64,000 bases of DNA from Chitinophagaceae bacterium (GCA_031400855.1 JANNQR010000045.1:690-64689), one strand, 5' to 3'; positions 5,318 through 56,951 are shown, numbered from the stretch's first letter. The notes: generated from the sequence alone by a model not told the origin. Translations and numbers: made by a program.

Positions 5318-8300
5318 TTACACTGTTTGCACCTGCACTTCCAACTCAGGGCTTTTCTCCAGGAACTGTATCATTTCTTCATTCATTTCAAAGCCGTTGC
5401 CGGTAGTTACGAGGCTGATTCTCATCTTGTTCTTTGGTTCTGTTAAAATGAACTTTAAAGTTGAATTTCCCCGGTGAGAACTCACATTTTTTTCTACAAA
5501 TGCTACCATTGCGGCACTGATATCCTGCGGATGGGCTTCAATCGTTATTGTTTTTGTCATGTTCCGTTTCATGGTTTCGGCGAGTGAAACAGACATTACC
5601 TTAAATTCAAATTCGTCTTTATTGTATCTTGGTTTGAAATATCCGTTGATAAGTACCGTACTTCCTTGTTGTAAAATGGGAAAAAGACGCAGATAATCTT
5701 CACTAAACAAAGGGAACTCTGTTTTTCCGGAGTAATCTTCGATAATGAAATTGCCATATTTGTTTCCGCTTTTTTGTGCTATCCTGTGTTGGGCATCAAC
5801 TACCATTGCCACCAAACGGAATGGTCTGCCGGGATTGGGCTGCATTTTTATTTCATCCTTAAACTCATTGAAATCTGCAATGGTGGTAACGCCATAATGC
5901 CGCATTTCAAACTTGTAATTATCCAACGGGTGGCCGCTTAAAAATATGCCCGTTACTTCTTTTTCATTATCTAATTGTTTGATCAATGGCCATGGTTCAC
6001 AATCAGGAATTCTTGGTGGCGGTATTTCCATACTGATGGGTAAATCGCCAAACAAGGTATTGGTAGCTGTTGCATTTTGTGTGGCATATATCTGCCCATA
6101 CTTAATAATTTTTTCAATACCGTTCATCATTTCGCCTTCGGGTACATTAAAATATTGTGCCCGGTGGTGTTCTGGAAAACAATCGAATCCACCTGAATGA
6201 GCAAGGCTTTCTAATGTTTTTTTATTAACAGTGCGTTGATTGATGCGTTTGATGAAATCAAAAATGTTGACAAAGGAGCCGCCTTTTTTTCTTTCATCAA
6301 TAATACTTTCTATGGCGGCTTCACCCACACCTTTTAATCCGCCAAGACCAAAACGAATTTCACCTTTATCATTTACGGCAAAACCTTTTAATGATTCATT
6401 GATGTCCGGCCCCAGTACTTTTAATCCCATTCGTTTACATTCTTCCATAAAGAAAGTGATCTTGTCAATACTGCCGGCGTTGTTCAACACCGCTGACATA
6501 TATTCAGCAGGGTAGTGGGCTTTTAAGTAAGCTGTCTGATACGCTACATACGCATAACAGGTGGAGTGAGATTTGTTGAATGCATATTGTGCAAATGCTT
6601 CCCAGTCAGTCCAGATTTTTTCTAATCGTTCAACAGGCAATAATTTTTGTGTAGCTCCTTCAATAAACTGTGCTTTCATTTTGTCCAGCACCGACTTTTG
6701 TTTTTTACCCATTGCCTTCCGAAGAACATCCGCATCACCTTTGCTGAAACCGGCTAATTTTTGCGCCAGCAACATTACTTGCTCCTGGTATACGGTAATA
6801 CCATAAGTTTCCTGCAGGTATTCTTCCATCTCAGGCAAGTCGTACTGAATAGATTCACGGCCATGCTTACGGTCAATATAGTTAGGGATATAAGCAATAG
6901 GGCCGGGGCGGTACAAGGCATTCATGGCAATCAGGTCGCCGAATTTATCGGGCTTTAATTCCCGTAAATATTTCTGCATGCCGGCACTTTCAAACTGGAA
7001 TGTACCGATAGTAGCGCCGTGTTGATAGAGTTCAAATGTTTTTTTATCATCCAATGGAATTTCATCTAAATCAATTTCTACTCCGTGAATTAATTTGATA
7101 AGAGCCAACGCATTTTTTAAAACGGTCAGGGTCTTCAATCCCAAAAAGTCCATTTTCAGGATACCTGCATTTTCAATATCATTTCCTTCAATCTGTGTCA
7201 GCCATAGCGTAGATTCTTTGGAAACAGCAATCGGAATCATCTCCATCAAATCTTTTGGTGCGATGATGATACCTGCCGCATGAATGCCGGTACTGCGGAC
7301 AGAACCTTCCAGTCGTTCTGCTTCATGTAATACTTTACTCAAAACAGATTTGGTGTCTTTATAGATTTCCCGGAGCTTTTTTACATTCTCCATGTCATCA
7401 TTGCCCATGCCTTCTTTTTCTTCGAGAGATGTTTCACTCCGTCCGCCTTGGGCATCAGGACGGACATCTTTTATTTTCATTGGCGCATGTAACACTCTCC
7501 GCAGTTCTGTACCCGGGCGGTCCGGAACTAATTTAGTTAAGGCACGACTTTCGGGCAATGGCAAATCCATTACTCTGGCCACATCGGCAATGCTTGATTT
7601 GGCAGCCATCGTACCATAGGTAATGATTTGTGCTACCTGGTTCTTGCCATACTTTTCTACTACGTAGTCAATTACTTTTTGCCTGCCTTCATCATCAAAG
7701 TCGGTATCTATATCCGGCATTGATTTACGGTCGGGATTTAAAAACCTTTCGAATAGTAAATTATATTTTATCGGGTCAATGTTTGTGATGCCGATACAAT
7801 ATGCCACCACCGAACCTGCAGCTGAACCACGTCCCGGACCGATGAATACACCTTTATCTCTTCCGGCCTGTATAAAATCGCCAACAATTAAGAAGTAACC
7901 GGCAAAGCCCATCATGCGGATGGTGAACAATTCAAACTCTAACCGTTCTCTTATTTCGTCCGTTATTTCTTTATATCGTTTGTCAGCACCCTGATACGTT
8001 AGTTCTTTTAAATATTCCCACTGGTTTTGCGACTCCGCAGATACTTTGTATTTACCAATCGTTTCTTCTTTGGTATGAATCTGGAACCGTTTTTCAATCG
8101 GGAAGTTGGGCAGCAAAATATCCCTTGTTAAATTCAACAACTCAACTTTATCTATTACTTCATTGGTATTATCTATGGCTTCGGGCAGGTCGTGAAAAAC
8201 CTTGCTCATTTCTTCCGTTGTTTTAAAATAAAACTGGTCATTAGGAAAAGCAAAGCGTTGTTTTGTTTTTACCTGAACATCGTCATCATTAAATTCCCGC

Positions 8301-9025: not shown

Positions 9026-9037
9026 AGTAAAAAAAAA

Positions 9038-9457
9038 TTAATGTTTCAATTTAAGAAACCCTGATATAGTTATTATGGAAGTGTTGCCAATTTTTTTCAT
9101 ATCTAATAAATCATTGTCCCCGGTAAGTAGAAAATCGGCCTGTCCATCTATTGATAAGGATAAAAGAAAATTATCTTTTGGGTCACGGCAGATAGTAACG
9201 TTGCTTTTTGTTTCAACAAAATCGATATAGGGGTCAAATACAGAAAGCATTTCATTTAAAGCATCTTTTGTAAAAAATTTTTTTAGCTTTGGTTTTGTAA
9301 TTGTTACTTCAATCTCGTTGATAAGTTCTGCACTAAAAAGTAACCTTACTTTTCCTGCAAACAAAAGGTGATCCAACAAATTTATTTTTTTTGAAATAAT
9401 AAAACTTACCCAAAGGTTTGTATCGATAATGAGCCTGAGTGTTTTATTTTTTGGCAT
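9038..9457 (-). CDS. PIN-domain toxin (putative toxin-antitoxin toxin, PIN_3-like)
   Basis: LRLIIDTNLWVS, AELINEI, CRDPKDNFLL, ADFLLTGDNDLL: acidic PIN motifs; start overlaps the upstream small gene. Confidence 0.88.
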   Translation of the reverse strand: MPKNKTLRLIIDTNLWVSFIISKKINLLDHLLFAGKVRLLFSAELINEIEVTITKPKLKKFFTKDALNEMLSVFDPYIDFVETKSNVTICRDPKDNFLLSLSIDGQADFLLTGDNDLLDMKKIGNTSIITISGFLKLKH

Positions 9458-9659
9458 AACGTTTGGCCCTTACATCTTCAACGATTTTGGTAATTTCTTC
9501 GAGGCTTGGGGAATTAGCTGTTTTGCGCCTCATCTTTTTCAGATAGGTTTTTAATTTTGATGCTGGCTCATCACTTACTTTGATAAGTTTAAGGTCTTGC
9601 ATGCCCTTAATAAGTGTTAAAGCTTTTGGGTTTAATATATCAACTGTAATTGTACTCAT
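9444..9659 (-). CDS. Putative antitoxin (71 aa)
   Basis: Small gene overlapping the PIN toxin by 14 nt; N-terminal beta/helix pattern MSTITVDILNPKALTLIKGMQDLKLIKV; role inferred from position. Confidence 0.65.
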   Translation of the reverse strand: MSTITVDILNPKALTLIKGMQDLKLIKVSDEPASKLKTYLKKMRRKTANSPSLEEITKIVEDVRAKRYAKK

Positions 9660-9762
9660 AGGTCAAATTTAAAAAAATAAATGGACTTACTTCAAATTGT
9701 TTTAAAGCTCTGTCAGCCAGCAAGGAGAACTGGGTGTGGACATGGAGATGGGAAAATTTCAT
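9640..9762 (-). pseudogene. Duplicated 5' stub of dnaE (40-aa ORF starting MKFSHLHVHTQFSLL)
   Basis: First 15 codons encode exactly the DnaE N-terminus with 9 synonymous codon differences, followed by ADRA (DnaE has DGA), then unrelated sequence; TGA stop at 9642-9640 overlaps the antitoxin gene. Confidence 0.85.
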
Positions 9763-9861
9763 AGGACAATATTCCTCTTTATATATTTTTTATCTATCAG
9801 GAAAATTTTAAATCACAGTTCACTGGCTCGTGACTCGTAGCTAACAACTCGCAGCCATCTC

Positions 9862-13649: not shown

Positions 13650-13689
13650 ATCATAAAGTTAAGAGGGGAATGGCGAGTGACAAGTGAGG

Positions 13690-15449: not shown

Positions 15450-17084
15450 ATGAAAGTTAAAAGTAATTGCATAAAAATACTGTTTCTTGTGGTGTTCACA
15501 GGCCAGTTAGCTGCCTGTTACAACAAAAAAAATAGTGAAGGGAACATTTTCCACTATAACGAGTTTAACGGTATATCCTCTCTTGATCCGGCTTTTGCTA
15601 AAAGCCAGTCGACTATGTGGGCGGCTCATCAGTTATATAATACGTTAGTCGAAATAGATGATAGCCTGCATATCATTCCATCATTAGCTAAAAGTTGGGA
15701 CATTTCATCCGACAGAACTGTTTTTACTTTCCATTTGAGAGACGACGTTTTTTTTCATGATGATGAAGTTTTTCCCGGAGGTGAAGGAAGAAAATTTACG
15801 GCAGGGGATGTGGAATATAGTTTTTCCCGGATCATTAATAAACAAACGGCCAGTCCCGGTGCATGGATTTTTAACCGGAAGGTAGATACCCTCCAGCCCT
15901 TTAAAGCGATTGATGATTCTACTTTTCAGTTAAAACTGCTTCAACCGTATATTCCAATGCTTGGAATTATTTCAATGCAATATTGTTCGATTGTAGCAAA
16001 AGAAGCCGTAGAGAAATACGGGAATGATTTTCGCCGACATCCTGTTGGTACCGGACCTTTTTATTTTGTGGACTGGGAAGAAGGTCAGGCATTGGTATTG
16101 AAAAAAAATAAACAATATTTTGAAAAAGATGAATCAGGTAACAGGCTCCCTTATCTGGATGGTGTGAATGTGTCTTTTTATGAAAGCAAAGCAACAGAGT
16201 TTTTATTATTCCGGCAAAAGCAACTGGAGTTTATCAATGATATTGAATCATCTTTTAAAGATGAAGTACTGACAAAGAAAGGAATGTTGCGAAAAGAGTG
16301 GGAGGGGAAAATTGAATTACAGGTCAATCCATATCTGAACATTGAGTATCTCGGTATTCTTGTTGACTCAGCGAATGATCTGGTGAAAAATTCACCGATG
16401 CGGTTAAAAAAGATCCGACAGGCTATCAATTATGGGTTCGATCGCAGAAAAATGGTACTATATCTCCGGAACTCTCTGGGTACACCAGCCGAATCAGGAT
16501 TTGTACCAATGGGGCTCCCATCTTTTGATTCATCCATCGTAAAAGGGTATCACTACAATCCATTTAAGACAAAACAATTACTGGCAGAAGCTGGTTTTCC
16601 GGATGGGAAAGGATTGCCTGCTATTAAATTACTCACCATTGCTATTTATGCTGATATGGCCAATTTCATCGCCAAGCAATTAGAAGAATCGGGCATACCA
16701 GTTCAGGTGGACGTACTTCAAAAGTCTTTACTGTTAACCATGACATCCGGTTCAAGGGCCGCATTTTTCCGGGGTAGTTGGATTGCTGATTATCCTGATG
16801 CAGAGAACTATTTGTCTGTTTTTTATTCTAAAAATCCGGCACCGCCAAACTATACAAGATATAAAAGTGCAAGTTTTGATGCACTATTCGAAAAAGCTTT
16901 AAAAGAAGATAACGATTCGCTTCGTTATAAACTTTACCGGCAAGCTGACCAGGTTATGATTGAAGATGCTCCGGTGGTACCGCTGTGGTATGATAAAGTG
17001 GTGAGATTAGTACAGCCAAATGTAAAAGGGTTTAAACCCAATGCGCTTAACCTTCTCGAACTACGAAAAGTAAAAATATATTAG
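15450..17084 (+). CDS. ABC transporter substrate-binding protein, family 5 (peptide/nickel-type) lipoprotein
   Basis: Lipobox LAAC, SSLDPAFA, LAKSWDIS, FHLRDDVFFHD, PVGTGPF, W.ADYPDAENYL; ATG at 15450 preferred over TTG 15438. Confidence 0.9.
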   Translation: MKVKSNCIKILFLVVFTGQLAACYNKKNSEGNIFHYNEFNGISSLDPAFAKSQSTMWAAHQLYNTLVEIDDSLHIIPSLAKSWDISSDRTVFTFHLRDDVFFHDDEVFPGGEGRKFTAGDVEYSFSRIINKQTASPGAWIFNRKVDTLQPFKAIDDSTFQLKLLQPYIPMLGIISMQYCSIVAKEAVEKYGNDFRRHPVGTGPFYFVDWEEGQALVLKKNKQYFEKDESGNRLPYLDGVNVSFYESKATEFLLFRQKQLEFINDIESSFKDEVLTKKGMLRKEWEGKIELQVNPYLNIEYLGILVDSANDLVKNSPMRLKKIRQAINYGFDRRKMVLYLRNSLGTPAESGFVPMGLPSFDSSIVKGYHYNPFKTKQLLAEAGFPDGKGLPAIKLLTIAIYADMANFIAKQLEESGIPVQVDVLQKSLLLTMTSGSRAAFFRGSWIADYPDAENYLSVFYSKNPAPPNYTRYKSASFDALFEKALKEDNDSLRYKLYRQADQVMIEDAPVVPLWYDKVVRLVQPNVKGFKPNALNLLELRKVKIY

Positions 17085-17301
17085 CTGTAAATACAGATGT
17101 TCAGTTCTAAATCGTAGAACTACTATAAAATAGTTTTAGAAATTTTACGATAACTATTGCAGAATTGAGAAAGAGAAATTACTTTAGCTATCCGGTTATT
17201 GATCTTATCTATTTTATCTGACTTGATAGCTGGTTACAAAATCCATTTTCTCAGATTGACTAAACTGAGCCGGATCTTATAAAAACTAAAATTTCCGTAC
17301 A

Positions 17302-18555
17302 ATGCAATGTCTCTTTACACATTTTGTTTTGTCTGTTTCCTTTACATGCTTCTTTCAAAATGCCATTAAAGCTCAGGCAGATTATACGTTTAAAAATCCT
17401 GTTCTTATATCTGGTATCAATTTACAAACCGGAGCTGTTTATAAATTCAGTAATGTAAAGGGAGGTTTAGATGCAAAAATTACAATTACGGGATCCACAG
17501 GTGGCGTCACGTTAAGTTCTATAGATGAAAGTAACAAAGGATATACAGACGCTTTTCAACCTGAAATAAATGTGGCGCCTAACTCAAACGGATACATAGA
17601 ATTCAAAATTGATTTTTTTAATGCTGTAAACGGAAGTCTTCAACAACAGGAGTTGATACCTGTTACTTGCTTGGATGTTGATGGTATTACTTATAGCGAT
17701 GGAAAATTATATCATGAGGATCAGGTACAGTACATGCCTGGTTATTTTGATTATAACATAACCGGAGGTAGTTTAAAAGTTACAAACTCCGGGAATTGGA
17801 TTGTAATTAAAAATACAACTGGTTTTAGTTATGCCGGTATAGATACTTTGTATCAGGATGTAATGGCAACAGTGGTGAATAGTAATACTTCGGGCTTCCT
17901 GATTCGGGTAGGTGCTGTTAATACATCTTCAACTCATTCAGCAATTCGCAATAGCAACGTTTACTTTAAGAAATTTACTTATTCTAAGCCACGAACATTG
18001 CCTAACAGGACTATGTTGAGCCTTAGTGGAAAAATGAAAAATGCCGGAGTCGAATTAAAAGGAACTTTATCCTCCAGTCATTCTTACGAAAGATTGGTCA
18101 TTGAAAAAGCTGCTGCATCTGGCTTGTTTGAATATGTGGACGAAATAGATATTTCGTCCACCACATTCAACGGGTATTCTTTTACTTATTTTGATTCCAG
18201 GGTTACAGGGAGTGTAAACTATTACAGGATTCATCTTCTTAGTAATAAATACAATATGGAGGAAATCAGTAATACACTGATGGTTAAAAAAGAAAATAGC
18301 CCGAAAGAATTAGAAGTTATTAATACGTTTATACAATCGGGGAATCCGGTGTTAGCAATTAGTTCGTTAAAAGAAGCAGAAGCGGATTTAAAGATCTTTG
18401 AACTGTCAGGCCGGATTATAAAAAGTATCTCTACCCGGCTGAATGCAGGTTATAATAATATTAACCTCTCAGGTCTTAGTTTTTCGAATGGGTGTTTTGT
18501 CTTATTGATCACAACAAAAAATAGTACAATCAGCAAAAAAATATTTATTCTTTAA
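17302..18555 (+). CDS. Secreted protein with T9SS type-A-like C-terminal sorting domain
   Basis: Signal peptide ending AQ; NYYRIHL Ig-like segment; C-terminal LKIFELSGRIIKS...GYNNINLSGL..GCFVLLI...ISKKIFIL. Confidence 0.75.
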   Translation: MQCLFTHFVLSVSFTCFFQNAIKAQADYTFKNPVLISGINLQTGAVYKFSNVKGGLDAKITITGSTGGVTLSSIDESNKGYTDAFQPEINVAPNSNGYIEFKIDFFNAVNGSLQQQELIPVTCLDVDGITYSDGKLYHEDQVQYMPGYFDYNITGGSLKVTNSGNWIVIKNTTGFSYAGIDTLYQDVMATVVNSNTSGFLIRVGAVNTSSTHSAIRNSNVYFKKFTYSKPRTLPNRTMLSLSGKMKNAGVELKGTLSSSHSYERLVIEKAAASGLFEYVDEIDISSTTFNGYSFTYFDSRVTGSVNYYRIHLLSNKYNMEEISNTLMVKKENSPKELEVINTFIQSGNPVLAISSLKEAEADLKIFELSGRIIKSISTRLNAGYNNINLSGLSFSNGCFVLLITTKNSTISKKIFIL

Positions 18556-18574
18556 ATAAAGACAATTAATCTAT

Positions 18575-18906
18575 AGGGCATCTCTAAAAACTTGCCTTTT
18601 CCTCTCCAGATGGAGTTCCCGATTCCGCCTATGGGGCGGGAGAAGGGAAGGAGCGAAGCTCGATAAAGGGGAGATCAAAAAAGTTATACCGATACGACAT
18701 TAAAAGCATGTCCTTCAGTCATACTTGTTGTCTATCGGTATTAATACCTCTGGCAAGGATATTAATTTATACCGATACGAAATTAGAAGCATGTCCTTCA
18801 GTCATACCTGTTGTCTATCGGTATTAATACCTCTGGCAAGGATATTAATTTAAAGTCTATTTGGTATTAAAGTCTATTTGGTATTATATGTTTTTAGAGA
18901 TGCCCT
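18575..18906. mobile_element. MITE-like element with 17-bp perfect terminal inverted repeats
   Basis: AGGGCATCTCTAAAAAC (18575-18591) / GTTTTTAGAGATGCCCT (18890-18906); no ORF; carries nested palindromes and the 83-bp tandem repeat. Confidence 0.75.
18684..18883 (-). repeat. Two tandem 83-bp units plus two 17-bp units (family also at 31195-31416 and 35941-36140)
   Basis: Units 18684-18766 and 18767-18849, then TTAAAGTCTATTTGGTA twice; reverse complement of the other two loci. Confidence 0.92.
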
Positions 18907-18931
18907 TTAATATATGTCAGTAAAAAAATAG

Positions 18932-19639
18932 TTAATGGGATGCTTTTAGTTTTTCTTTAAAAACCTTTCTGAACTTGTCCAACTTCGGACGTATAACAAT
19001 CTTGCAATACGGGTTAGCATTTTCATTTAATTCAAAATATTGCTGATGATAATCTTCAGCCGGATAAAATACGGTAAAAAGAGTTACCTCAGTAACGATT
19101 GGTTTATCAAATGCACCACTTTTATTTAATTCCGTTTTATACTTTTCCGCTTTTTCTTTTTGCTCCTGGTTATGGTAGAAAATTCCACTCCGGTATTGTG
19201 TACCTACATCTGCACCCTGGCGGTTTAATGTTGTTGGGTCATGTGTTTCCCAAAAAACTGCCAGCAATTCATCAAAAGTGATTTTAGCCGTGTCATATAC
19301 AATTTGTAAAGCTTCAGCATGCCCAGTAGTACCTGAACAAACTTCTTTATAAGTTGGATTCGCACCCGGGCCACCAGTATAACCTGATGTGGCGCTGATA
19401 ACTCCCTCCAATTCTTCAAAAATGGCCTCAGTGCACCAGAAGCATCCATTGGCAAACGTGGCGATTCCGGTTCCGGGTATAGCTTGTTGTTGTATAGATT
19501 CCATAGTGTTTTTTGTAATTATTTTAGTTGTTTCAGGCGATTTTTGGGCGCAGGATAAAAGTGTTGTTAGTCCAACAATTCCTGAGGTTAACCAGGTTTT
19601 CATAATATGTACTTTTAAATTCTTCATCTTAATGATCAT
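18932..19639 (-). CDS. msrA: Peptide-methionine (S)-S-oxide reductase, probably an exported lipoprotein (start may be a downstream Met)
   Basis: GCFWC, SGYTGG, GHAEA, HDPTTLNRQGADVGTQYRSGIF, AEDYHQQY; LLSC lipobox-like. Confidence 0.95.
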   Translation of the reverse strand: MIIKMKNLKVHIMKTWLTSGIVGLTTLLSCAQKSPETTKIITKNTMESIQQQAIPGTGIATFANGCFWCTEAIFEELEGVISATSGYTGGPGANPTYKEVCSGTTGHAEALQIVYDTAKITFDELLAVFWETHDPTTLNRQGADVGTQYRSGIFYHNQEQKEKAEKYKTELNKSGAFDKPIVTEVTLFTVFYPAEDYHQQYFELNENANPYCKIVIRPKLDKFRKVFKEKLKASH

Positions 19640-23187: not shown

Positions 23188-23234
23188 GTCCCGAAAGTCG
23201 GGAATGTAGCAGCCGTTTCCCGATTATATCGGGA
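23188..23234. repeat. Pair of TCCCGA...TCGGGA palindromes
   Basis: GTCCCGAAAGTCGGGA (23188-23203) and TCCCGATTATATCGGGA (23218-23234); same stem as the insert in ggt. Confidence 0.65.
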
Positions 23235-24441: not shown

Positions 24442-24639
24442 GCACACGGATGACACAGACCAGCCTACCGGCAGGCTGGTTGGATGAACACGGATTTTTT
24501 CTGCTTCGCAGAAATTTTGATTTTGTTATTTCGTTTTCTTTCATTTTCCATCTGTAAGTTGATAGCTTTTCTTGAACTATTTTTCACGAAGTGAAAAATA
24601 AATCCGTGTTCATCCGTCTTACCCGTGTCATCCGTGTGC
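24442..24639. mobile_element. Non-coding dyad element with long inverted arms (CACGGATGA/ACACGGAT type)
   Basis: Left GCACACGGATGACACAGA[20-bp insert]TTGGATGAACACGGATTT; right AAATCCGTGTTCATCCGTCTTACCCGTGTCATCCGTGTGC; inner hairpins TTTCTGC-TTC-GCAGAAA and TATTTTTCAC-GAA-GTGAAAAATA. Confidence 0.75.
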
Positions 24640-31194: not shown

Positions 31195-31416
31195 TTTTAT
31201 ACCAAATGGACTTTTATACCAAATAGACTTTAATACCAAATAGACTTTAAATTAATATCCTTGCCAGAGGTATTAATACCGATAGACAACAGGTATGACT
31301 GAAGGACATGCTTCTAATGTCGTATCGGTATAAATTAATATCCTTACCAGAGGTATTAATACCGATAGACAACAGGTATGATTGAAGGACATGCTTTTAA
31401 TGTCGTATCGGTATAA
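31195..31416 (+). repeat. Three 17-bp units plus two tandem 83-bp units
   Basis: TTT(T/A)ATACCAAAT(G/A)GAC three times (31195-31245); 83-mers at 31251-31333 and 31334-31416. Confidence 0.92.
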
Positions 31417-31693
31417 GTTGTGGCGTAACGGACATCCATACAAACGATTTTGGGAGATTCAAGGATATTTTTGCGAAATTTAGCAGTACTTCATTGGCAA
31501 ATTCACAATGTCAGCCCCTCATTCAATGGTTTTGCCAGGTAGCTGAAATAGTACTCCAAACCATAAATTTTGGTTGGAAATACTATCTTATTCAGGATAT
31601 TTTTTTTTATATCACAAAAAAATTTAACTTAGATTTTCGATTAAGGACTTTACCGGAGAAACTGGTAATAATCAATCATTTAAATTAACTCTT

Positions 31694-35894: not shown

Positions 35895-36140
35895 TTTATA
35901 GAATTGCGATTGAATTTTTAAAAATCATGGCAATTGGTATAATACCAAATAGACTTTAAATTAATATCCTTGCCTGAGGTATTAATACCGATAGACAACA
36001 GGTATGACTGAAGGACATGCTTTTAATGTCGTATCGGTATAATACCAAATAGACTTTAAATTAATATCCTTGCCAGAGGTATTAATACCGATAGACAACA
36101 GGTATGACTGAAGGACATGCTTTTAATGTCGTATCGGTAT
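35895..36140 (+). repeat. Chain of ATACC...GGTAT mini-elements including two exact 100-bp tandem units
   Basis: 35941-36040 and 36041-36140 differ by 1 nt; preceded by TATAGAATTGC...GCAATTGGTAT; units join at GGTAT^AATACC. Confidence 0.9.
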
Positions 36141-36144
36141 AAAC

Positions 36145-36347
36145 AGATTGCCCGCCCGGACGAATGGTCGGACAGGCTTCGGGCTTTTCAATATACTGTG
36201 TGGTTTCATTCGTTTGTTGCCCGGCTTCTCAAGGACGAGACTACGAAGTCGGAACGACCGGCCACGACACCGGAGTCTCGTCCTTGCGAGGGTTGCCATA
36301 GCGAATTTCTATACCTGATAAATTTCTGAAGCAACCCGAAGCAAACT
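36145..36347. mobile_element. REPIN-like dyad element with a nested palindrome
   Basis: AGATTG[CCCGCCCGGACGAATGGTCGGACAGG]CTTCGGG ... CCCGAAGCAAACT outer arms; inner arms CTCAAGGACGAG / CTCGTCCTTGCGAG. Confidence 0.65.
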
Positions 36348-45356: not shown

Positions 45357-45546
45357 GCCACTGATGGACACAGATTAACAGAAATTGAACCCGCATCTGT
45401 AGAATTCTCCAAATTGACTTAGTAGGTAAGACTAAGAAAAGGCAATTATTTACAGAGATTGTATTAATCTGTGCAAATCTCCCGCCAAGTAGGCGGGACA
45501 AGTTGTGTTCATCCCCGCCTGAATGACGCAGTCGGGCAGGTGTGGC
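45357..45546. mobile_element. Non-coding dyad element (GCCAC.GATG.ACACAGAT type) with two nested palindromes in the right arm
   Basis: Left GCCACTGATGGACACAGATTAACAGA; right ATCTGTGCAAATCT[CCCGCCAAGTAGGCGGGACAAGTT]GTGTTCATC[CCCGCCTGAATGACGCAGTCGGGCAGG]TGTGGC; removing the brackets restores the inverted arm. Confidence 0.75.
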
Positions 45547-45567
45547 CAAAATGTATTTTCCTACAAA

Positions 45568-45916: not shown

Positions 45917-45987
45917 TAATATTAAATTGTGACATCACTTGATTCGCCGAAAGGCGGAAAAAGTTTTGTTTTTCATGGCTATACTTT

Positions 45988-47092: not shown

Positions 47093-47195
47093 GCGGCTGA
47101 TATTGCTTTTACTGATCAAAGTTACTTGAATTGTTCAGTAACGAAAAAGAAAGGGATTGTGTATTTTTTGTACTTATTTTTAAGAAAAAATTAAG

Positions 47196-48287: not shown

Positions 48288-48298
48288 TTCAATAAGAT

Positions 48299-49144
48299 AT
48301 GAACCTAAAAATTTCTGATTCTTTTTTAAGATTGACCGATATCATGAATGACCTTCGGGAAAAGTGCCCATGGGATAAAAAGCAAACTATTCAATCGTTG
48401 CGTCAAATGACAATTGAAGAAACCTATGAACTGGCAGATGCTATTACAGAGAATGATTGGAAAGGGATTAAAGAAGAATTGGGAGATTTATTATTACACA
48501 TCGTTTTTTATGCAAAAATCGGGAGCGAACAAAAGCAGTTTGAATTGGAGGAGGTGATCAATGGGATTTGTGATAAATTAATAGCCCGGCATCCTCATAT
48601 TTATGGTGATCCCGCCAGTGCGGGACAAGTCGTAAAAGTGAATGATGCAGATGATATAAAAAGAAATTGGGAAAAGTTAAAGTTAAAGGAAGGTAAGAAG
48701 TCTGTTATTGAAGGGGTTCCGAAATCGCTTCCGGCAACTGTAAAGGCCATGCGTTTACAGGAAAAAGCCAAACAAGTTGGATTTGAATGGGATAATAAAG
48801 AACAGGTTTGGGAAAAAGTAGAAGAGGAGATGGCGGAGTTGAAAGAGGCTATAAAGAGTCTTGAGTCGGTCTCGCCTGAGGCGAGATTGAGTCAAAACAA
48901 AGAGAAACTCCAGGAAGAAGTCGAGGAAGAGTTTGGCGATGTGGTGTTCTCACTAATCAATTATGCACGGTTTTTGCAGGTAGATGCCGAAAATGCACTG
49001 GAAAAGACGAATAAAAAGTTCATTTACCGCTTCACATTGATGGAACAACATGCTTTACAACATGGCAAAAGCCTTACTGATATGACTCTTCAGGAAATGG
49101 ATGACATCTGGAACATCATCAAAAAACAGCGATCAAATTTGTGA
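48299..49144 (+). CDS. mazG: Nucleoside triphosphate pyrophosphohydrolase MazG
   Basis: LREKCPWDKKQT, EETYEL, EELGDLLL, RHPHIYGD, LQEKA..VGFEW, EEEFGDVVFSLINYARF. Confidence 0.96.
   Translation: MNLKISDSFLRLTDIMNDLREKCPWDKKQTIQSLRQMTIEETYELADAITENDWKGIKEELGDLLLHIVFYAKIGSEQKQFELEEVINGICDKLIARHPHIYGDPASAGQVVKVNDADDIKRNWEKLKLKEGKKSVIEGVPKSLPATVKAMRLQEKAKQVGFEWDNKEQVWEKVEEEMAELKEAIKSLESVSPEARLSQNKEKLQEEVEEEFGDVVFSLINYARFLQVDAENALEKTNKKFIYRFTLMEQHALQHGKSLTDMTLQEMDDIWNIIKKQRSNL
48611..48631. repeat. 21-bp palindrome inserted in frame in mazG (PASAGQV)
   Basis: CCCGCCAGTGCGGGACAAGTC; near-copy CCCGCCAAGTAGGCGGGACAAGTT is intergenic at 45481-45504; excision gives HPHIYGDVKV. Confidence 0.75.
48861..48893. 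repeat. 33-bp in-frame palindromic insert in mazG (LESVSPEARLS)
   Basis: TCTCGCC-TGA-GGCGAGA hairpin flanked by TTGAGTC direct repeats (48861-48867, 48887-48893); GAGTC also immediately precedes it. Confidence 0.7.
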
Positions 49145-52899: not shown

Positions 52900-52948
52900 T
52901 CTTATTCCTTTCTTACTGCTTCCTATCTTTAAGTATAAATTTTCTACA

Positions 52949-54877
52949 ATGAAAAGAATAACTTTCTTTCTACTGGGTGTATTATCTACAATTACCAGTA
53001 TAGCGCAAAGAACTGAGAAGCCACCACTTCATGGCAAAAACTGGATGGCTATAACCGGTAAACCATTAGCGGCAACTGCTGGATCTATCATTTTTCAGAA
53101 AGGTGGTAATGCTGTTGATGCAGCATGTGCTATGCTGGCTGCTACCTGTACCATGTGGGATGTATTAAGTTGGGGAGGGGAAACACAAGCTTTGATTTAT
53201 AATCCAAAAACAAAAAAAGTAATTGCCATTAATGCACTTGGGGTAGCACCAACAGGAGCTACCGTTGATTTTTTTAAAAAGAAAGGATATTCATTTCCGC
53301 CAGAGTATGGTCCTTTGGCTGCCACCACACCCGGTACAGTCGGTGGTCTATGTTATATGCTGGCGCAATATGGAACGATGAGTCTGGAGCAGGTGTTGGG
53401 ACCTGCAATGCAACTAGCAGCAGGCTACCCGATAGATGCACAAACTGCTAACTCAATGGAAAGAGGTAAAGAAAGAATAAAAGAATGGCCTTATAGCGCA
53501 AAAGTTTTTTTACCTCACACAGGGGAAAAAAGAGAAGCACCCGAAGCTGGAGAAATTTTTATACAAAAGGATTTGCTGGCAACATTGACAAAAATGGTAG
53601 AAGCAGAGAGAGTCATGCTTAAACAAAAGAAAAGCCGCAAAGAAGCTATCATGGCCGGCAATGATCGTTTTTATAAAGGGGATATTGCCAAAGAATTTGT
53701 CAGAGGATGTAAGGAACAAGGTGGATTGATAACATTGGAAGACCTTGCCAGGTGGAAACCAATTGAAGAAGTACCGATGTCAGTGAATTATAAAGGTATT
53801 GAAGTATACAAGCTGCAGCAATGGACACAAGGGCCGGCATTGCTGCAATCACTGAATATACTGGAGAATTTCGATTTGAAAAAAATGGGATATAACAGCT
53901 CTCAATACATTCATACGTTATACCAAACTATGAATTTAGCATTTGCCGATCGTGACTTTTATTATGGCGATCCCTACTTTCCACCTGCTGAACCCATGAA
54001 AGGATTGCTGAGTAAAGATTATTCAAAGCAAAGAGCTGCATTGATCAAACCGGAAATGAATGATCGGAGCATTAGTCCCGGCGACCCTTATCCTTTTGAA
54101 GGGGAAACAAATCCTTATACTGAATTGCTGAAGAAATGGAATACATCTGGTGATGGGAATAGAAATTTTGTTCCTGCTCATGATTCTGCTTCCGCTTATA
54201 TCCAATCCCGGGAGAGCCTGTCCCGATTTTTCGGGAGGCTTGAGGTAGATAGCGATGAATTATATATGGAAAGATTATGGATGGGAACAACATCCGTGGA
54301 AGCAGCCGATAAAGATGGCTGGGTTGTTTCCATCACACCAAGCGGAGGATGGCTGCCTGCCTGCATTGCGGGTAATACAGGTGTAGGTATGAGCCAACGA
54401 TTACAAAGTTTTGTGCTGGATTCAACATTGAACCCTTTTAATGTGATAGAGCCAGGGAAAAGACCAAGGGTAACACTAACACCAACGATGGCATTGAAAG
54501 ATGGAAAACCATTTTTATCTTTTGCTGTACAGGGTGGTGATACACAGGATCAAAATTTATTACAGTTCTTTTTAAATATGGTTGAATTTAATATGACCGT
54601 GCAACAAGCTTGTGAAGCTGCTAATATTAACTCTAACCAGCTATGGCTTTCTCTCGGCGGGACTAAAATCGAAGACCGTAAACCAAGGGCAGGAGAAATT
54701 TTAGTAAGCAATACCACAAAAGAAGAGGTAAAGAACGACCTGACTAAAATGGGATATAAGGTAACCACAGGAAGTCGTACCAGCGGCCCTATCAATGCTA
54801 TTTATTTTGACTGGAAGCATGGTAGCTTCTGGGGTGGTAGCAGTAATAATGGTGAGGATTATGGAATAGGGTGGTAG
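52949..54877 (+). CDS. ggt: Gamma-glutamyltransferase family protein (Ntn hydrolase)
   Basis: Signal peptide; GGNAVDAA, LSWGGE, PGTVGG, FADRDFYYGDP, GTTS nucleophile, PGKRPRVTL, QGGDTQDQ. Confidence 0.92.
   Translation: MKRITFFLLGVLSTITSIAQRTEKPPLHGKNWMAITGKPLAATAGSIIFQKGGNAVDAACAMLAATCTMWDVLSWGGETQALIYNPKTKKVIAINALGVAPTGATVDFFKKKGYSFPPEYGPLAATTPGTVGGLCYMLAQYGTMSLEQVLGPAMQLAAGYPIDAQTANSMERGKERIKEWPYSAKVFLPHTGEKREAPEAGEIFIQKDLLATLTKMVEAERVMLKQKKSRKEAIMAGNDRFYKGDIAKEFVRGCKEQGGLITLEDLARWKPIEEVPMSVNYKGIEVYKLQQWTQGPALLQSLNILENFDLKKMGYNSSQYIHTLYQTMNLAFADRDFYYGDPYFPPAEPMKGLLSKDYSKQRAALIKPEMNDRSISPGDPYPFEGETNPYTELLKKWNTSGDGNRNFVPAHDSASAYIQSRESLSRFFGRLEVDSDELYMERLWMGTTSVEAADKDGWVVSITPSGGWLPACIAGNTGVGMSQRLQSFVLDSTLNPFNVIEPGKRPRVTLTPTMALKDGKPFLSFAVQGGDTQDQNLLQFFLNMVEFNMTVQQACEAANINSNQLWLSLGGTKIEDRKPRAGEILVSNTTKEEVKNDLTKMGYKVTTGSRTSGPINAIYFDWKHGSFWGGSSNNGEDYGIGW
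54217..54236. repeat. Palindrome within ggt coding sequence (LSRFFG)
   Basis: CCTGTCCCGATTTTTCGGGA; same TCCCGA/TCGGGA stem as intergenic copies at 23188-23234. Confidence 0.6.
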
Positions 54878-55246
54878 TTACTGAAGTTGTTGAAATGCTG
54901 CTTCAAGATTTTTCGCAGCTTGTTTAGGAAAAGTAACGTCGTTGGCAAATACAAAAACATCATCGGGCTTGTGTTCTTTTTCTGCAGCCAGCTTTTCCCA
55001 TTTTTGAGACCACTCAGTGTAATGGGTGATTAGGGATTGAATGTCATCCTGTAAATTTTCTGGCATTAAGTACTTGTTGTCAGTGAGTAATTTTAATGCG
55101 TTGCTATTGTACAATTTTAATTGCTGGGCATATTGAAATGTTTTTCCGGCGGCTAAATAGCTTTTGTAGGAATGAGTAGACTGATTGAGAATTGTAATTA
55201 GTGCCTTGAAAAATTCTGATGGGTGATGGTTACTATAATTTTGCAT
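54878..55246 (-). CDS. Hypothetical protein
   Basis: 122-aa ORF overlapping the polX stop, with natural amino-acid composition; no recognised motif. Confidence 0.65.
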   Translation of the reverse strand: MQNYSNHHPSEFFKALITILNQSTHSYKSYLAAGKTFQYAQQLKLYNSNALKLLTDNKYLMPENLQDDIQSLITHYTEWSQKWEKLAAEKEHKPDDVFVFANDVTFPKQAAKNLEAAFQQLQ

Positions 55247-56951
55247 TTTTATTTCTTCTTTGATGCATTAAAAAATCCGTAAACTCCTTCAATCCAAAAC
55301 TGCTTAAATTATTCTCCTTCTCCATCCCACCTTTTTGCCCCGCAAGCACTCCATATTTCACATCATCAAAACCACTAAGAGCATGAGCATCCGGGTTAAT
55401 AGAAAGTAAAACGCCTTTTTCAATAGCATAATCAATCCATTTCCAGTCAATGTCCAGTCGCCGGGGGTGGGCATTTAACTCTATCACGACATTATTAGCA
55501 GCGCAGGCTTCAATTATTTTTTTATGATCAACCGGGTAGCCGTTGCGGCTTAGCAACAAACGGCCCGTCATGTGGCCAAGAATAGTAGTGTAAGGGTTTT
55601 CAATGGCTGTTATTAATCGCTTCATGGCCTTATCTTCCGGCATTTTCAGGTTGCTATGCACGGAAGCTATTACAAGGTCAAATGTTTTAAGAACGGCTTC
55701 AGGGTAATCCAGGCTGCCATCGTTAAGTATATCACTTTCAATGCTTTTGAAGATTTTAAAGGCCTGTCCGCCGGGGCCCTTAGGAGATGGCTGTAGGGCC
55801 AGTTGTTTGTTTAACTCATCAATTTGCTTATGCTGCGCCAATATCCTGTCTTCCTTAAGCCCATTAGCATAAAAAGCGGTTTGAGAGTGGTCGGAGATAA
55901 CAAGGTATTCAAACCCCCGTTTGATGCACTCTTCTGCCATTTCTTCAATTGTATTGGTTCCATCACTCCAGTTGCTATGGCTATGAATGATTGAACAGAT
56001 CTCTTCTGTTTGAATTATTCGGGGAAGCTTATTCTTTATGGCTAATTCAATGATCGTTGCTTTTTCCCGCAGGCAGGGAAGTATAAATGGAATGTTGGCA
56101 GCTTCAAATACTGATTCATCGTTTTCACTTGCGGTATATTTCAACTTTGGAAATGCATTTTGAAATGCATCTGTAAATTCTTTACTACCCGTTGTCAGGA
56201 ATTGCCGTTCAATAATATTTTGTTTGCCGGTATATAAACGAAGCTTTAATCCATTCATCAGTTTGTACAATAACTCATCTTCTTTTTCTTCCAGCAACTC
56301 AGGTGGTTGTGCTGTTAAAAATTTTGGTTTGATTATTTCTTTTGTTTCGTCAACAACAAATTCTAATTCTTCAATCGTTAATGTATGTCTTCTGTATGCG
56401 CCGGTTACTCTTACTTTTTCTGATGTAAATAATTTTTTGAGATAGTTTTCAACCTGCGGAAACACTTCATTTAGCTGTGCAAATAAAAAGTGCCCCTGGT
56501 TAGAAAAATAAAAATTTATGGCCTCCAGGACGTTTTTTTGTGTTTTTTCTCCAAATCCCTTAAAAAGCGTCAAACGGTTTTCGTTGCAGGCATAAAGCAA
56601 TTCGCCTAACGATTCTATCTCCATCTGCTTCCATATCGTATTAATTTTTTTGGGACCGATACCTTTTATGTTCAGCATTTCAATAACACCTTGCGGAGTT
56701 TTATTGATGTATTCATTCAACGTTTCCAGCTTGCCGGTGTCTAATAACTCAATAACTTTTTTGGCTACACTTTCGCCAATTCCTTTCATAGTGAAAAGTG
56801 TTGAGCGGGGTGTATTTTTTAATTGCATTGGTAGCTTCTCTATGTTGAAAGCCGCTACAGCAAAGGTTTTCGTCTTAAAGGAGTTTTCGCCGTTGATATC
56901 CATTAATTTGGAAAGGAGATCAAAATTATCGGCAATTGCACCATTATCCAT
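55233..56951 (-). CDS. polX: DNA polymerase X / 3'-5' exonuclease PHP-domain protein
   Basis: Lyase-like N-terminus, HhH GIGPKK and GFGEKT, GAYRR; PHP motifs HSHSNWSDG, ISDH, IESDI, SVH, GHMTGR, INPDAH. Confidence 0.92.
   Translation of the reverse strand: MDNGAIADNFDLLSKLMDINGENSFKTKTFAVAAFNIEKLPMQLKNTPRSTLFTMKGIGESVAKKVIELLDTGKLETLNEYINKTPQGVIEMLNIKGIGPKKINTIWKQMEIESLGELLYACNENRLTLFKGFGEKTQKNVLEAINFYFSNQGHFLFAQLNEVFPQVENYLKKLFTSEKVRVTGAYRRHTLTIEELEFVVDETKEIIKPKFLTAQPPELLEEKEDELLYKLMNGLKLRLYTGKQNIIERQFLTTGSKEFTDAFQNAFPKLKYTASENDESVFEAANIPFILPCLREKATIIELAIKNKLPRIIQTEEICSIIHSHSNWSDGTNTIEEMAEECIKRGFEYLVISDHSQTAFYANGLKEDRILAQHKQIDELNKQLALQPSPKGPGGQAFKIFKSIESDILNDGSLDYPEAVLKTFDLVIASVHSNLKMPEDKAMKRLITAIENPYTTILGHMTGRLLLSRNGYPVDHKKIIEACAANNVVIELNAHPRRLDIDWKWIDYAIEKGVLLSINPDAHALSGFDDVKYGVLAGQKGGMEKENNLSSFGLKEFTDFLMHQRRNKNAKL
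55761..55800. repeat. Composite palindromic in-frame insert in polX (LQPSPKGPGGQA)
   Basis: Coding strand GGCCCT-ACAGCCATCTCCTA-AGGGCC then CCGGCGGACAGGCC; sits in the PHP domain between LNKQLA and FKIFKS. Confidence 0.6.

What the first reader, a model, noticed from the sequence alone, without database searches (positions are those of the whole stretch)
7441..55800. A family of 20-40 bp palindromes invades both intergenic repeats and essential protein-coding genes in frame
At least five GC-rich hairpin inserts lie inside conserved CDSs without breaking frame: dnaE 7441-7465, mazG 48611-48631 and 48861-48893, ggt 54217-54236, polX 55761-55800. Relatives are nested in intergenic dyads at 18617-18643, 23188-23234, 24460-24479, 36151-36176, 45481-45504, 45514-45540 and 45943-45958. 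At the intergenic sites the host element's symmetry shows the exact insertion point. Shared ends (CCCGCC..., ...GG(A/G)CAGG, ...GGCGGAC, TCCCGA/TCGGGA) suggest a few subfamilies spread by a trans-acting factor not encoded in this window. This resembles Rickettsia palindromic elements, which create new peptide segments in proteins, but the units here are far shorter. Inference: an active micro-element system remodelling surface loops of housekeeping enzymes.
Basis: partly seen in the sequence, partly recalled or inferred. Interest (0 to 1): 0.8.

Follow-up and report, generated by a model that had tools for sequence, protein, structure and literature searches.

The report
Tiny GC-rich repeats inserted in genes
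This Chitinophagaceae genome carries very short (about 21-50 base) GC-rich repeat elements that have landed between genes and, in frame, inside intact housekeeping genes; they are a previously undescribed relative of the known bacterial REP-type palindromic repeats.

Summary
All five coding-region sites are 3n insertions that the closest orthologues lack: dnaE 27 nt, mazG 21 nt and about 12 nt, ggt 48 nt, polX 33 nt. They are 53-71% GC in a 38.6% GC window.

Two intergenic sites (45514-45540 and 36151-36176) belong to a sharply defined 27-nt family that I call E, consensus CCCGCCTGAATGACnnAGTCGGGCAGG.
- One pattern scan found E in at least 120 metagenome contigs, all with different flanks.
- Copies occur nested in other palindromes, in tandem arrays, and in frame inside panC, paaZ, tilS and tsaD.
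- Related strains carry the locus upstream of rpmE with zero, one or two elements, with exact boundaries and no target duplication.
- The dnaE insert is orthologous to an E-like insert in relatives.
- The first mazG insert, 45480-45504 and the ggt core share a second hairpin type, TCCCG..CGGGACA(A/G)G.

Caveats:
- The polX and 36151 sequences are not significant hairpins.
- Four intergenic sites are unverified.
- TCCCG/CGGGA stems are also common in terminators and tRNAs.
- No transposase is linked. The one RAYT family I met has a different cognate repeat.

Intragenic REPs are already documented, so this is a new variant of a known kind. The mechanism, trans mobilisation through single-stranded DNA, is inferred.

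The parts
7438..7464 (-). 27-nt in-frame insert in dnaE. It encodes VRPDAQGGR and is a decayed copy of the E-type repeat.
   Evidence: It is the only indel against the 87% identical L084. P0001, P0002, P0004, P0005 and P0007 lack it, while more distant orthologues carry it at the same codon. The orthologous insert in L209 scores 19.1 bits (E = 0.008) with the E model. DNA hairpin z = -3.05. It lies in a stretch that does not align to Taq Pol III alpha between residues 531 and 548.
48611..48631 (+). 21-nt in-frame insert in mazG (PASAGQV). G-type hairpin TCCCGCCAGTGCGGGA followed by the tail CAAGTC.
   Evidence: Clean indel against L002, L003, L005, L007, L015 and about 60 others. L001 and L004 carry an identical 21-mer although their genes are 77% identical (P = 0.004). 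L015, 91% identical to L004, lacks it. z = -3.9. It falls in a gap against E. coli MazG 3CRA.
48870..48886 (+). 17-nt hairpin TCTCGCCTGAGGCGAGA inside a variable mazG loop. It makes the loop about 12 nt longer than in the nearest relatives.
   Evidence: A roughly 94% identical strain in run X5 lacks 12 nt here. z = -5.6. No other copies were found, so family membership is not shown.
54199..54251 (+). 48-nt in-frame insert in ggt (16 aa). The boundaries are ambiguous within this stretch. The core 54206-54242 contains a G-type hairpin in reverse orientation, CCTGTCCCGATTTTTCGGGAGG.
   Evidence: Absent from L002, L005 and L012. The core occurs in 3-8 other contigs with unrelated flanks in runs X1, X2, X5 and X7. 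It lies about 15 aa upstream of the conserved TTS residues where the solved small-subunit chains start to align; that this is the self-cleavage site rests on my own knowledge of the enzyme family.
55763..55795 (-). 33-nt in-frame insert in polX (11 aa). GC-rich, with the end CGGCGGACAGG, but not a significant hairpin.
   Evidence: Absent from 14 orthologues. A minor contig in X1 joins 55760 to 55796 with the letters CG between. It is single-copy in four metagenomes. z = -0.1. It falls in a gap against PolX 2W9M.
45514..45540 (+). Canonical 27-nt E element, CCCGCCTGAATGACGCAGTCGGGCAGG.
   Evidence: 47.1 bits, E = 4e-10. Summed contig depth is about 12 times the flanks in X1 and 50-90 times in X10, and assemblies break here. 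Related strains have the empty site ...CATC|TGTGGCC.
45480..45504 (+). G-type hairpin TCCCGCCAAGTAGGCGGGA followed by CAAGTT. Close relative of the first mazG insert.
   Evidence: Sequence match to 48610-48631. z = -5.8. X5 holds one contig with this element but no E, and another with neither.
36151..36176 (+). E-family variant CCCGCCCGGACGAATGGTCGGACAGG, abutting the end of a roughly 100-nt dyad repeat.
   Evidence: 31.0 bits, E = 6e-6. Context. It does not fold better than shuffles.
24459..24480 (+). Hairpin ACCAGCCTACCGGCAGGCTGGT. Possible further micro-repeat type; unverified.
   Evidence: z = -3.05. A similar CCAGCCGGCAGGCTGG lies next to an E copy in L128. No empty-site or copy-number evidence.
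23188..23234 (+). Two TCCCGA..TCGGGA hairpins between the pqiA-like and lacI-like genes. Unverified.
   Evidence: z = -4.1. This stem class is also common in terminators and tRNAs of relatives.
18617..18643 (+). GC-rich segment with the small hairpin CCGCC..GGCGG inside a CCTCTCC-type dyad. Unverified.
   Evidence: z = -1.4. It sits in a 1.87-kb segment specific to the window relative to L084.
45943..45958 (+). Small hairpin 26 nt after the rpmE stop codon. Most likely an ordinary terminator, not a family member.
   Evidence: Position. z = -1.7. No hit with the E model.

Best explanation
WHAT IT IS. The window belongs to a Chitinophagaceae bacterium from freshwater sediment. Its genome is colonised by several related families of very small (about 21-50 nt), GC-rich, non-autonomous repeat elements of the REP type (repetitive extragenic palindromes).
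- The best defined is the 27-nt E family, CCCGCCTGAATGACnnAGTCGGGCAGG. It is an imperfect 9-bp dyad with fixed C.A and T.G mismatches and a conserved loop.
- A second type (G) is a 6-7-bp hairpin, TCCCG(C/A)..(G/T)CGGGA, with the tail CA(A/G)G.

HOW IT MOST LIKELY WORKS.
- Shown: copies are added or removed as exact units, without target-site duplication.
- Shown: they lie preferentially after A-(T/C)-(C/G), typically ..ATC.
- Seen in many of the 130 copies but not counted: they often sit in the loops of other hairpins or inside one another.
- Inferred: they move through single-stranded DNA, using an enzyme supplied in trans. The best guess is an HUH/Y1 tyrosine transposase of the RAYT kind (REP-associated tyrosine transposase). 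An enzyme of another class is not excluded.

WHY SOME COPIES ARE INSIDE GENES.
- Insertions inside genes are mostly purged.
- Those that survive are 3n long, free of stop codons, and sit in linkers or variable loops. They are then translated as 4-16 extra residues, as in dnaE, mazG, ggt and polX here.
- Once fixed they decay as ordinary coding sequence and can be lost again. This gives the patchy distribution seen among orthologues.
For: SHOWN: lineage-specific 3n inserts.
- All five coding inserts are absent from the closest orthologues.
- The asymmetry is 4-5 inserts in the window against 0 in L005 over 13 kb.

SHOWN: a real repeat family.
121 have distinct flanks.
- Positions left free in the search pattern are still 78-94% conserved.
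- Covariance-model hits in the window score 47 and 31 bits.
- Summed depth at E is about 12 to 90 times that of the flanks, and contigs break there.
- The ggt core recurs in other contexts.

SHOWN: movement.
- The locus upstream of rpmE exists with neither element, with the G-type element only, or with both, in related strains. The boundaries are exact.
- L004 carries the 21-nt mazG insert and L015, 91% identical, does not. The 21-mer is identical in L001 and L004 although their genes are 77% identical.
- A relative in X5 lacks the 12 nt at mazG site 2.

SHOWN: insertion behaviour.
- No target duplication, and a 5' flank bias with 65% A at position -3.
- Nesting and tandem arrays are visible.

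SHOWN: selection in genes.
- 16% of E copies lie in long ORFs, against 59% of random positions in the same contigs.
- 17 of 19 copies in ORFs are exactly 27 nt, against 75 of 111 elsewhere (p = 0.04).
- E sits in frame in a panC gene where solved homologues have a 10-residue gap.

SHOWN: link between coding inserts and E.
- dnaE orthologues carry CCCGCCCGGATGACCCGTTCGGACGGG at the same codon (19 bits, E = 0.008).

CONTEXT FROM THE LITERATURE.
- Intragenic REPs, including in DNA replication and repair genes, are described in PMC3733652.
- REP families with no dedicated transposase are described in the same paper.
- Bacteroidetes RAYT subclasses with atypical REPs are described in PMC6006769.
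Against: - No transposase is present in the window (Pfam on the 10 ORFs I tested). No protein recurs near E in 721 kb of E-bearing loci.
- The only RAYT family I met is flanked by a different repeat, GCGCAGGTCTCCTGACCTGTGC. That repeat is absent from the window. In L198 the E copies interrupt that RAYT gene rather than flank it.
- E lacks the GT(A/G)G foot of canonical REPs and mostly occurs as single copies, not inverted dimers.
- Hairpin stability is weak for E itself and absent for polX and 36151.
- The first mazG, second mazG, ggt and polX inserts do not score with the E model. Their link to E rests on shared end motifs only.
- The patchy distribution at dnaE and the first mazG site fits repeated precise loss of one old insert as well as repeated gain.
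- Copy number in the source genome itself could not be counted.
Confidence: 0.72

Rival explanations
1. The coding inserts are old, vertically inherited loop segments of Chitinophagaceae proteins. They happen to be GC-rich and are repeatedly lost by slippage. The intergenic repeats are an unrelated phenomenon.
For: At dnaE and the first mazG site, distant orthologues carry homologous inserts at the same codon. The states with 9, 5 or 0 extra residues are interspersed on the DnaE tree, so many independent events are needed whichever direction is assumed. The inserts sit in regions of variable length.
Against: - The ggt and polX inserts are found in no orthologue.
- The dnaE inserts in relatives are recognisably E sequence.
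- The first mazG insert matches an intergenic element that is polymorphic between strains.
- The ggt core recurs in unrelated contexts.
- The inserts are 53-71% GC in a 38.6% GC genome.
Confidence: 0.12
2. The hairpins arise anew at each site by replication template switching or snap-back repair, giving quasi-palindromes. No mobile family is involved.
For: The second mazG and polX inserts are unique sequences with no other copies detected. The second mazG insert is a near-perfect local palindrome flanked by a 7-nt direct repeat, TTGAGTC.
Against: This cannot explain a 27-nt consensus, loop included, conserved across at least 120 unrelated contigs. It also cannot explain identical 21-mers in genes that are 77% identical, or the recurrence of the ggt core.
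Confidence: 0.08
3. The elements are functional host motifs kept by selection, such as binding sites for a DNA- or RNA-binding protein, terminators or mRNA stabilisers. They would be neither selfish nor mobile.
For: The loop and the mismatches of E are strikingly conserved across genomes of 34-50% GC, which suggests recognition by a conserved protein. Many TCCCG/CGGGA hairpins in relatives are terminators.
Against: - E occurs in both orientations, inside ORFs, nested within other repeats and in tandem arrays.
- It is present or absent between close strains at the same locus.
- Its hairpin is weak and has no T-tract.
- It interrupts a transposase gene with in-frame stops.
Confidence: 0.08

Closest known systems
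REP / REPIN elements mobilised by RAYT (REP-associated tyrosine transposases), including the Bacteroidetes-rich RAYT subclasses 2.4 and 2.6 with 'atypical' REPs (PMC6006769, PMC3116915)
   Same: - Imperfect GC-rich dyads of 20-40 nt.
- Many dispersed copies with no coding capacity, acted on in trans.
- No target duplication.
- Several subfamilies per genome.
- Occasional in-frame copies inside genes, including inside RAYT genes.
   Different: - No GT(A/G)G foot.
- Mostly single copies or direct tandem arrays, not inverted dimers.
- No flanking RAYT found. The RAYT family seen in related MAGs has a different cognate REP.
- The same 27-nt consensus is shared by contigs of widely differing GC content. 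By my own knowledge, classical REPs are largely species-specific; I did not check this in the papers.
CGTC/TGTC-tagged REP superfamily, including Rickettsia RPE-4 and RPE-6 and Neisseria dRS3 (Di Nocera et al. 2013, PMC3733652)
   Same: - Short palindromes with no dedicated transposase.
- Reported in Bacteroidetes among other phyla.
- Documented inside ORFs, including DNA synthesis and repair genes, where they add short peptide segments.
- The G type read on its other strand begins C(C/T)TGTC, similar to the TGTC tag variant described in that paper.
   Different: - The described CGTC families have 8-9-bp stems starting with A-T pairs, 4-5-nt loops and a CCA tail.
- E has a 9-nt conserved loop and GC-only ends.
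- The consensus sequences are in figures I could not read, so membership was not tested.
Rickettsia palindromic elements, RPE-1 type (Ogata et al. 2000; cited from my own knowledge and through PMC3733652)
   Same: Palindromic repeats inserted in frame in housekeeping genes, creating new peptide segments. Present or absent between close relatives.
   Different: RPE-1 is about 100-150 nt and confined to an obligate intracellular alphaproteobacterium. The units here are 21-50 nt and occur in free-living Bacteroidota.
Cyanobacterial small dispersed repeats (Elhai et al. 2008, 'Very small mobile repeated elements in cyanobacterial genomes'; from my own knowledge, paper not held in the library)
   Same: - Units of 21-27 nt.
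- Nested insertion into one another and into other repeats.
- Insertion into genes.
- No associated enzyme identified.
   Different: Different phylum and unrelated sequences. I could not compare the sequences directly.

Membership tests
REP/REPIN-RAYT system (REPtron) | Short (20-40 nt) imperfect palindrome present in many dispersed copies | tested here: met
   The 27-nt E consensus occurs in at least 120 contigs with distinct flanks. Depth is 12-90 times that of the flanks. The dyad is imperfect and its stability weak.
REP/REPIN-RAYT system (REPtron) | Conserved 5' GT(A/G)G tetranucleotide at the foot of the hairpin | tested here: not met
   The consensus from 85 copies of 27 nt starts CCCGCC and ends GGGCAGG. 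The flank consensus is A-Y-S, not GTAG.
REP/REPIN-RAYT system (REPtron) | A single-copy RAYT gene flanked by the cognate repeat | tested here: inconclusive
   - No RAYT in the window (Pfam on 10 selected ORFs; motif scan of all frames).
- In 721 kb of E-bearing loci there are two RAYT genes. Each is flanked by a different repeat of its own.
- One of them is interrupted by two E copies.
- The source genome outside the window could not be searched.
REP/REPIN-RAYT system (REPtron) | Organisation as inverted dimers (REPINs/BIMEs) | tested here: not met
   Of 130 copies, nearly all are single copies or direct tandem arrays (L177, L191, L132). Only one close inverted pair was seen (L153).
Classical MITE (miniature inverted-repeat transposable element) | Terminal inverted repeats with a target-site duplication | tested here: not met
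   Matches between flanks of 2-5 nt are at or near chance: 4 observed against 7.6 expected for 2 nt, 3 against 1.9 for 3 nt. Filled and empty alleles differ by exactly the element.
Rickettsia palindromic elements (RPE-1) | Palindromic unit of about 100-150 nt, inserted in frame in genes | tested here: not met
   In-frame insertion is met, but the units are 21-50 nt. No sequence comparison with RPE was possible.
CGTC/TGTC-tagged REPs (PMC3733652) | CGTC/TGTC/CCTC tag, 8-9-bp stem starting with A-T pairs, 4-5-nt loop, 3-nt tail | tested here: inconclusive
   G-type copies read C(C/T)TGTC-CCG..CGG-GA with 4-5-nt loops, but their stems are 6-7 bp and GC-only. E has a 9-nt loop.
Known RNA families (Rfam 15) | Match to a curated covariance model | tested here: not met
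   The only hit in the window above a gathering threshold is tRNA-Ser.

The most novel reading that the evidence does not exclude
The 27-nt E element would be among the smallest mobile DNAs known. Its sequence, loop and mismatches included, is almost unchanged across many Bacteroidota genomes (possibly beyond), and it has no linked transposase and no REP-type foot. That would imply mobilisation by a conserved, still unidentified host or mobile-element enzyme that is not a cognate RAYT, together with horizontal spread. Because the unit is exactly nine codons with four of six frames open, it would act as a general generator of peptide-loop insertions in essential enzymes.
Probability: 0.2. Interest if true: 0.8.

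Novelty: new variant of a known kind. Interest (0 to 1): 0.55.

Why it matters
- It adds a clearly defined, apparently undescribed micro-repeat family to Bacteroidota, a phylum where REP-like elements are poorly characterised.
- The family is abundant enough to break metagenome assemblies. In one run its summed depth is 50-90 times that of the flanking sequence.
- It gives natural examples of how 4-16-residue segments enter intact essential enzymes (DnaE, PolX, MazG, GGT here; PanC, PaaZ, TilS and TsaD in other contigs). This bears on protein indel evolution and on annotation.
- It poses a tractable question: which enzyme recognises a 27-nt imperfect hairpin with a conserved loop?
- Practically, these elements can mislead orthologue alignments and strain typing.

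Tried and rejected
- Shuffle-based enrichment of TCCCG..CGGGA looked overwhelming. The same stem is frequent in relatives as terminators and as tRNA-Tyr anticodon arms, so I did not use it as evidence for a family.
- GC-island listing gave 107 islands and was too unspecific to find further coding inserts.
- K-mer enrichment mainly recovered the separate roughly 100-nt dyad repeat and a CCGG-context bias.
- Short-stretch read laying could not test the 21-nt mazG insert, which is below the matching length. It showed the polX insert is unique.
- The dnaE read laying showed all allele types in the community but could not resolve strains.
- No RNA runs were available, so retention of the inserts in mRNA is untested.
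- Search for a linked enzyme:
  - ORF clustering across 120 loci gave only housekeeping families.
  - A motif scan found two RAYT genes.
  - Their homologues in Chitinophagaceae MAGs are flanked by another repeat. I therefore rejected 'E is the cognate REP of this RAYT'.
- Viral contigs hold only 2 E copies, so a phage vector is not indicated.
- The literature and supplement searches found neither the E sequence nor a described Chitinophagaceae family.
- The E covariance model does not detect the window's coding inserts directly.

Full report
CONTEXT. The window is 38.6% GC. Its genes are most similar to Chitinophagaceae metagenome-assembled genomes: MazG is up to 82% identical and DnaE up to 94-95%. 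Identical DNA occurs in freshwater-sediment metagenomes. Rfam finds only a tRNA-Ser. Pfam on the 10 ORFs I tested, and a motif scan of all frames, found no transposase in the window.

CHECK OF THE CODING-REGION CLAIMS. I fetched 80 loci around mazG orthologues and contigs for close DnaE orthologues. I then aligned proteins and DNA.
- dnaE. The window differs from the 87% identical L084 by a single indel in 3.7 kb. This is 27 nt at 7438-7464, encoding VRPDAQGGR.
- mazG site 1. The insert is clean and 21 nt long: GAT|CCCGCCAGTGCGGGACAAGTC|GTA. About 65 of 80 orthologues read GAT|GTA.
- mazG site 2. This lies in a hypervariable loop. Relative to L001, L005 and a roughly 94% identical strain in run X5, the window is about 12 nt longer. 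The extra bases form the hairpin TCTCGCCTGAGGCGAGA.
- ggt.
- polX. The window has 33 extra nt (11 aa), absent from 14 orthologues.
- All inserts are multiples of three and 53-71% GC.
- Over 13 kb of synteny with L005, the window has four GC-rich coding inserts and L005 has none.
- The inserts fall where solved homologues have gaps or fail to align:
  - the region after the first MazG domain and a loop of the second (3CRA);
  - a PolX PHP-domain loop (2W9M);
  - the stretch just upstream of the conserved TTS residues of GGT, where the solved small-subunit chains start to align;
  - a DnaE stretch that does not align to Taq Pol III alpha between residues 531 and 548.

IS IT MORE THAN CHANCE? GC-rich hairpins number 29 against 12.3 +/- 3.9 in dinucleotide shuffles. 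The TCCCG..CGGGA class is 5 against 0.03. That class is confounded, because in relatives the same stem is common in A-tract/T-tract terminators and tRNA anticodon arms, at 53 per 1.28 Mb. Folding with DNA parameters gives:

| Site | z-score |
|---|---|
| dnaE | -3.1 |
| mazG site 1 | -3.9 |
| mazG site 2 | -5.6 |
| ggt | -2.3 |
| 23188 | -4.1 |
| 24459 | -3.1 |
| 45480 | -5.8 |
| 45514 | -1.7 |
| 18617 | -1.4 |
| 45943 | -1.7 |
| polX | -0.1 |
| 36151 | +1.0 |

So 'palindrome' is not a universal property of these sequences.

A REAL REPEAT FAMILY (E).
- Laying metagenome contigs on 45460-45560 showed that 45511-45544 is a repeat. Summed depth is about 600 against about 50 for the flanks in X1. 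Contigs break there, and many contigs carry the element with unrelated flanks.
- In X10 the ratio is about 1800-1900 against 20-40.
These hold 130 copies, 121 with distinct flanks. Median contig GC is 0.40, and the 5-95% range is 0.34-0.50.
- Positions left free in the pattern are still 78-94% conserved. The consensus is CCCGCCTGAATGAC-nn-AGTCGGGCAGG. Lengths are 27 nt in 92 copies, 28 in 22, 26 in 13 and 29 in 3.
- A covariance model built from 74 copies scores the window sites at 47.1 and 31.0 bits. Nothing else in the window scores significantly.
- E is rare in the 1.3 Mb of species-representative relatives. The single copy there is in the isolate Pinibacter aurantiacus, L056.
- It is nearly absent from viral contigs, with 2 hits.

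BEHAVIOUR OF E.
- Copies lie inside the loops or stems of other palindromes (for example L094, L106, L138) and inside E-like elements (L097, L114, L184). They also occur in direct tandem arrays (L177, L191, L132).
- There is no target-site duplication.
- The 5' flank is biased: A at position -3 in 65% of copies, T or C at -2, C or G at -1.
- Only 16% of copies lie in long open frames, against 59% of random positions in the same contigs.
- 17 of 19 copies in ORFs are exactly 27 nt, against 75 of 111 elsewhere (one-sided Fisher p = 0.04).
- I read the host ORFs from their sequences as panC, paaZ, tilS and tsaD. Only panC was checked against a database: there E encodes ARLNDAVGQ exactly where solved PanC structures have a 10-residue gap.

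EVIDENCE FOR MOVEMENT.
- Upstream of rpmE the window reads ..AAATC[G-type hairpin 45480-45504]GTGTTCATC[E 45514-45540]TGTGGCC.. .
- Run X5 holds one contig with the G-type element but with ..CATC|TGTGGCCAA, so without E. It holds a second contig, 98% identical over the next 140 nt, that has neither element. X10 and X11 hold further forms without E.
- L004 and L015 are 91% identical in mazG and differ by exactly the 21-nt insert.
- L001 and L004 are 77% identical, yet share an identical 21-mer (P = 0.004).
- A minor contig in X1 lacks the polX insert.

HOW THE CODING INSERTS RELATE TO THE FAMILIES.
- dnaE. Orthologues carry, at the same codon, CCCGCCCGGATGACCCGTTCGGACGGG (L209) and ACCCGCCCTGATGACGCGGGAGG (L207). 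The L209 copy is the top hit of the E model in 60 kb (19.1 bits, E = 0.008). The window's dnaE insert is therefore best read as a decayed E copy. It is read in the only open frame of the forward orientation, giving A/V-R-P-D...
- On a DnaE tree, the states with 9, 5 and 0 extra residues are interspersed. The window's nearest neighbours all lack the insert. Either repeated precise loss or repeated gain at a hot spot is required, and I cannot decide between them.
- The same holds for mazG site 1. Puia and another clade carry different GC-rich inserts at that codon.
- G type. The first mazG insert, 45480-45504 and the ggt core share TCCCG(C/A)-loop-(G/T)CGGGA-CA(A/G)G. There are three in this window, against about one independent copy per 1.3 Mb in relatives.
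- The ggt core 54206-54242 recurs in 3-8 other contigs with different flanks.
- The polX and second mazG inserts have no detected relatives. They share only GC-richness and, for polX, the end CGGCGGACAGG.

SEARCH FOR THE ENZYME.
- ORF clustering across the E-bearing loci found only housekeeping families.
- A motif scan found two REP-associated tyrosine transposase genes, scoring 100 and 91 bits on NF047646 against a cut-off of 80.
- One of them (L198) is interrupted by two identical E copies that introduce in-frame stops. Both copies sit after ..ATC in E orientation.
- That gene and its intact homologues in Ferruginibacter and Chitinophagaceae MAGs are flanked by a different repeat, GCGCAGGTCTCCTGACCTGTGC. 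This repeat is absent from the window. The other RAYT (L125) has GTAG-type flanks.
- No cognate enzyme for E was therefore identified. Mobilisation through single-stranded DNA by a trans-acting HUH-type enzyme remains an inference. It rests on exact unit-wise gain and loss, the lack of target duplication, and the imperfect hairpin with fixed mismatches. The insertion into hairpin loops seen in many copies (not counted) points the same way.

COMPARISON WITH WHAT IS KNOWN.
- REPs inside ORFs, including DNA synthesis and repair genes, are documented by Di Nocera et al. (PMC3733652). So are REP superfamilies without a dedicated transposase, such as the CGTC/TGTC-tagged families. Those include Rickettsia RPE-4 and RPE-6 and occur in Bacteroidetes.
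- Quentin et al. (PMC6006769) describe Bacteroidetes-rich RAYT subclasses with atypical REPs, and REPs inserted in frame in RAYT genes.
- Their table of manually curated REPs holds nothing like E.
- The E sequence is absent from the searchable literature and from Rfam.
- E fails the canonical REP tests: no GTAG foot, no inverted dimers, no flanking RAYT. It also fails the MITE test, because there is no target duplication.
- I therefore file it as a new variant of the REP-like micro-repeat kind, not as a member of a named family.

VERDICT.
- Its interpretation (a small family of trans-mobilised micro-elements that create in-frame peptide inserts) is the best explanation.
- Four corrections apply:
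  - Not all units are palindromes.
  - Two of the coding inserts are old or recurrent rather than private to this genome.
  - Four intergenic sites are unverified.
  - The general phenomenon of intragenic REPs is already known.

Noticed in passing
L198:1913-2524: A REP-associated tyrosine transposase gene is interrupted by two identical 27-nt E copies (1981-2007 and 2248-2274) that create in-frame TGA stops. The gene is flanked by its own, different repeat, GCGCAGGTCTCCTGACCTGTGC. The same repeat flanks intact homologues in Chitinophagaceae MAGs (L211-L214).
   Followed up: yes
L072:7629-7700 and L012:14628: A degraded 5' copy of the neighbouring tRNA-Gly(GCC) gene carries the 18-nt perfect palindrome TCCCGATAGCTATCGGGA in its D-loop, and ATCCGCCGTTTGCGGGAC in place of the anticodon arm. 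The same 18-mer is intergenic in another genome (L012).
   Followed up: partly
window 18681-18846, 31231-31417, 35940-36143: A separate dyad repeat of about 83-104 nt (TATACCGATACGACA...TGTCTATCGGTATTA) occurs as tandem pairs at three intergenic sites. It accounts for the top enriched 9-mers in the window.
   Followed up: no
window 17075-18944: A 1.87-kb segment is absent from the syntenic relative L084. It holds an ORF with a type IX secretion sorting tail (17302-18555, weak Pfam hit below the curated cut-off) and the repeat-rich spacer 18556-18931.
   Followed up: partly
window 27757-31131 and 31694-35824: Two adjacent very large genes share segments that are 73-89% identical. They are recent paralogues and are more GC-rich (0.41-0.46) than the rest of the window.
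   Followed up: no
window 9038-9457; L084:13097-13655: A PIN-domain gene next to dnaE is present only in the window. The relative L084 instead has a small gene pair, one with a weak ParE-toxin match, on the other side of dnaE.
   Followed up: no
window 57044-57131: A tandem repeat of 15-18 nt period lies just downstream of polX. It would encode Lys/Ala-rich sequence on the minus strand, and the window has one more 15-nt unit than L005. No ORF was assigned to it.
   Followed up: no
window 54868-56443: In run X1 the genome sits at about 50x, yet almost no contig covers polX. Only a minor variant without the 33-nt insert is seen, which suggests strain-level replacement or an assembly drop-out at this gene.
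   Followed up: partly
L093 and L160 (groundwater, 0.1-um filter fraction): E copies also occur in contigs from a very small cell-size fraction. One sits in a tsaD-like gene that has a large extra segment. The family may therefore extend beyond Bacteroidota; taxonomy was not checked.
   Followed up: no
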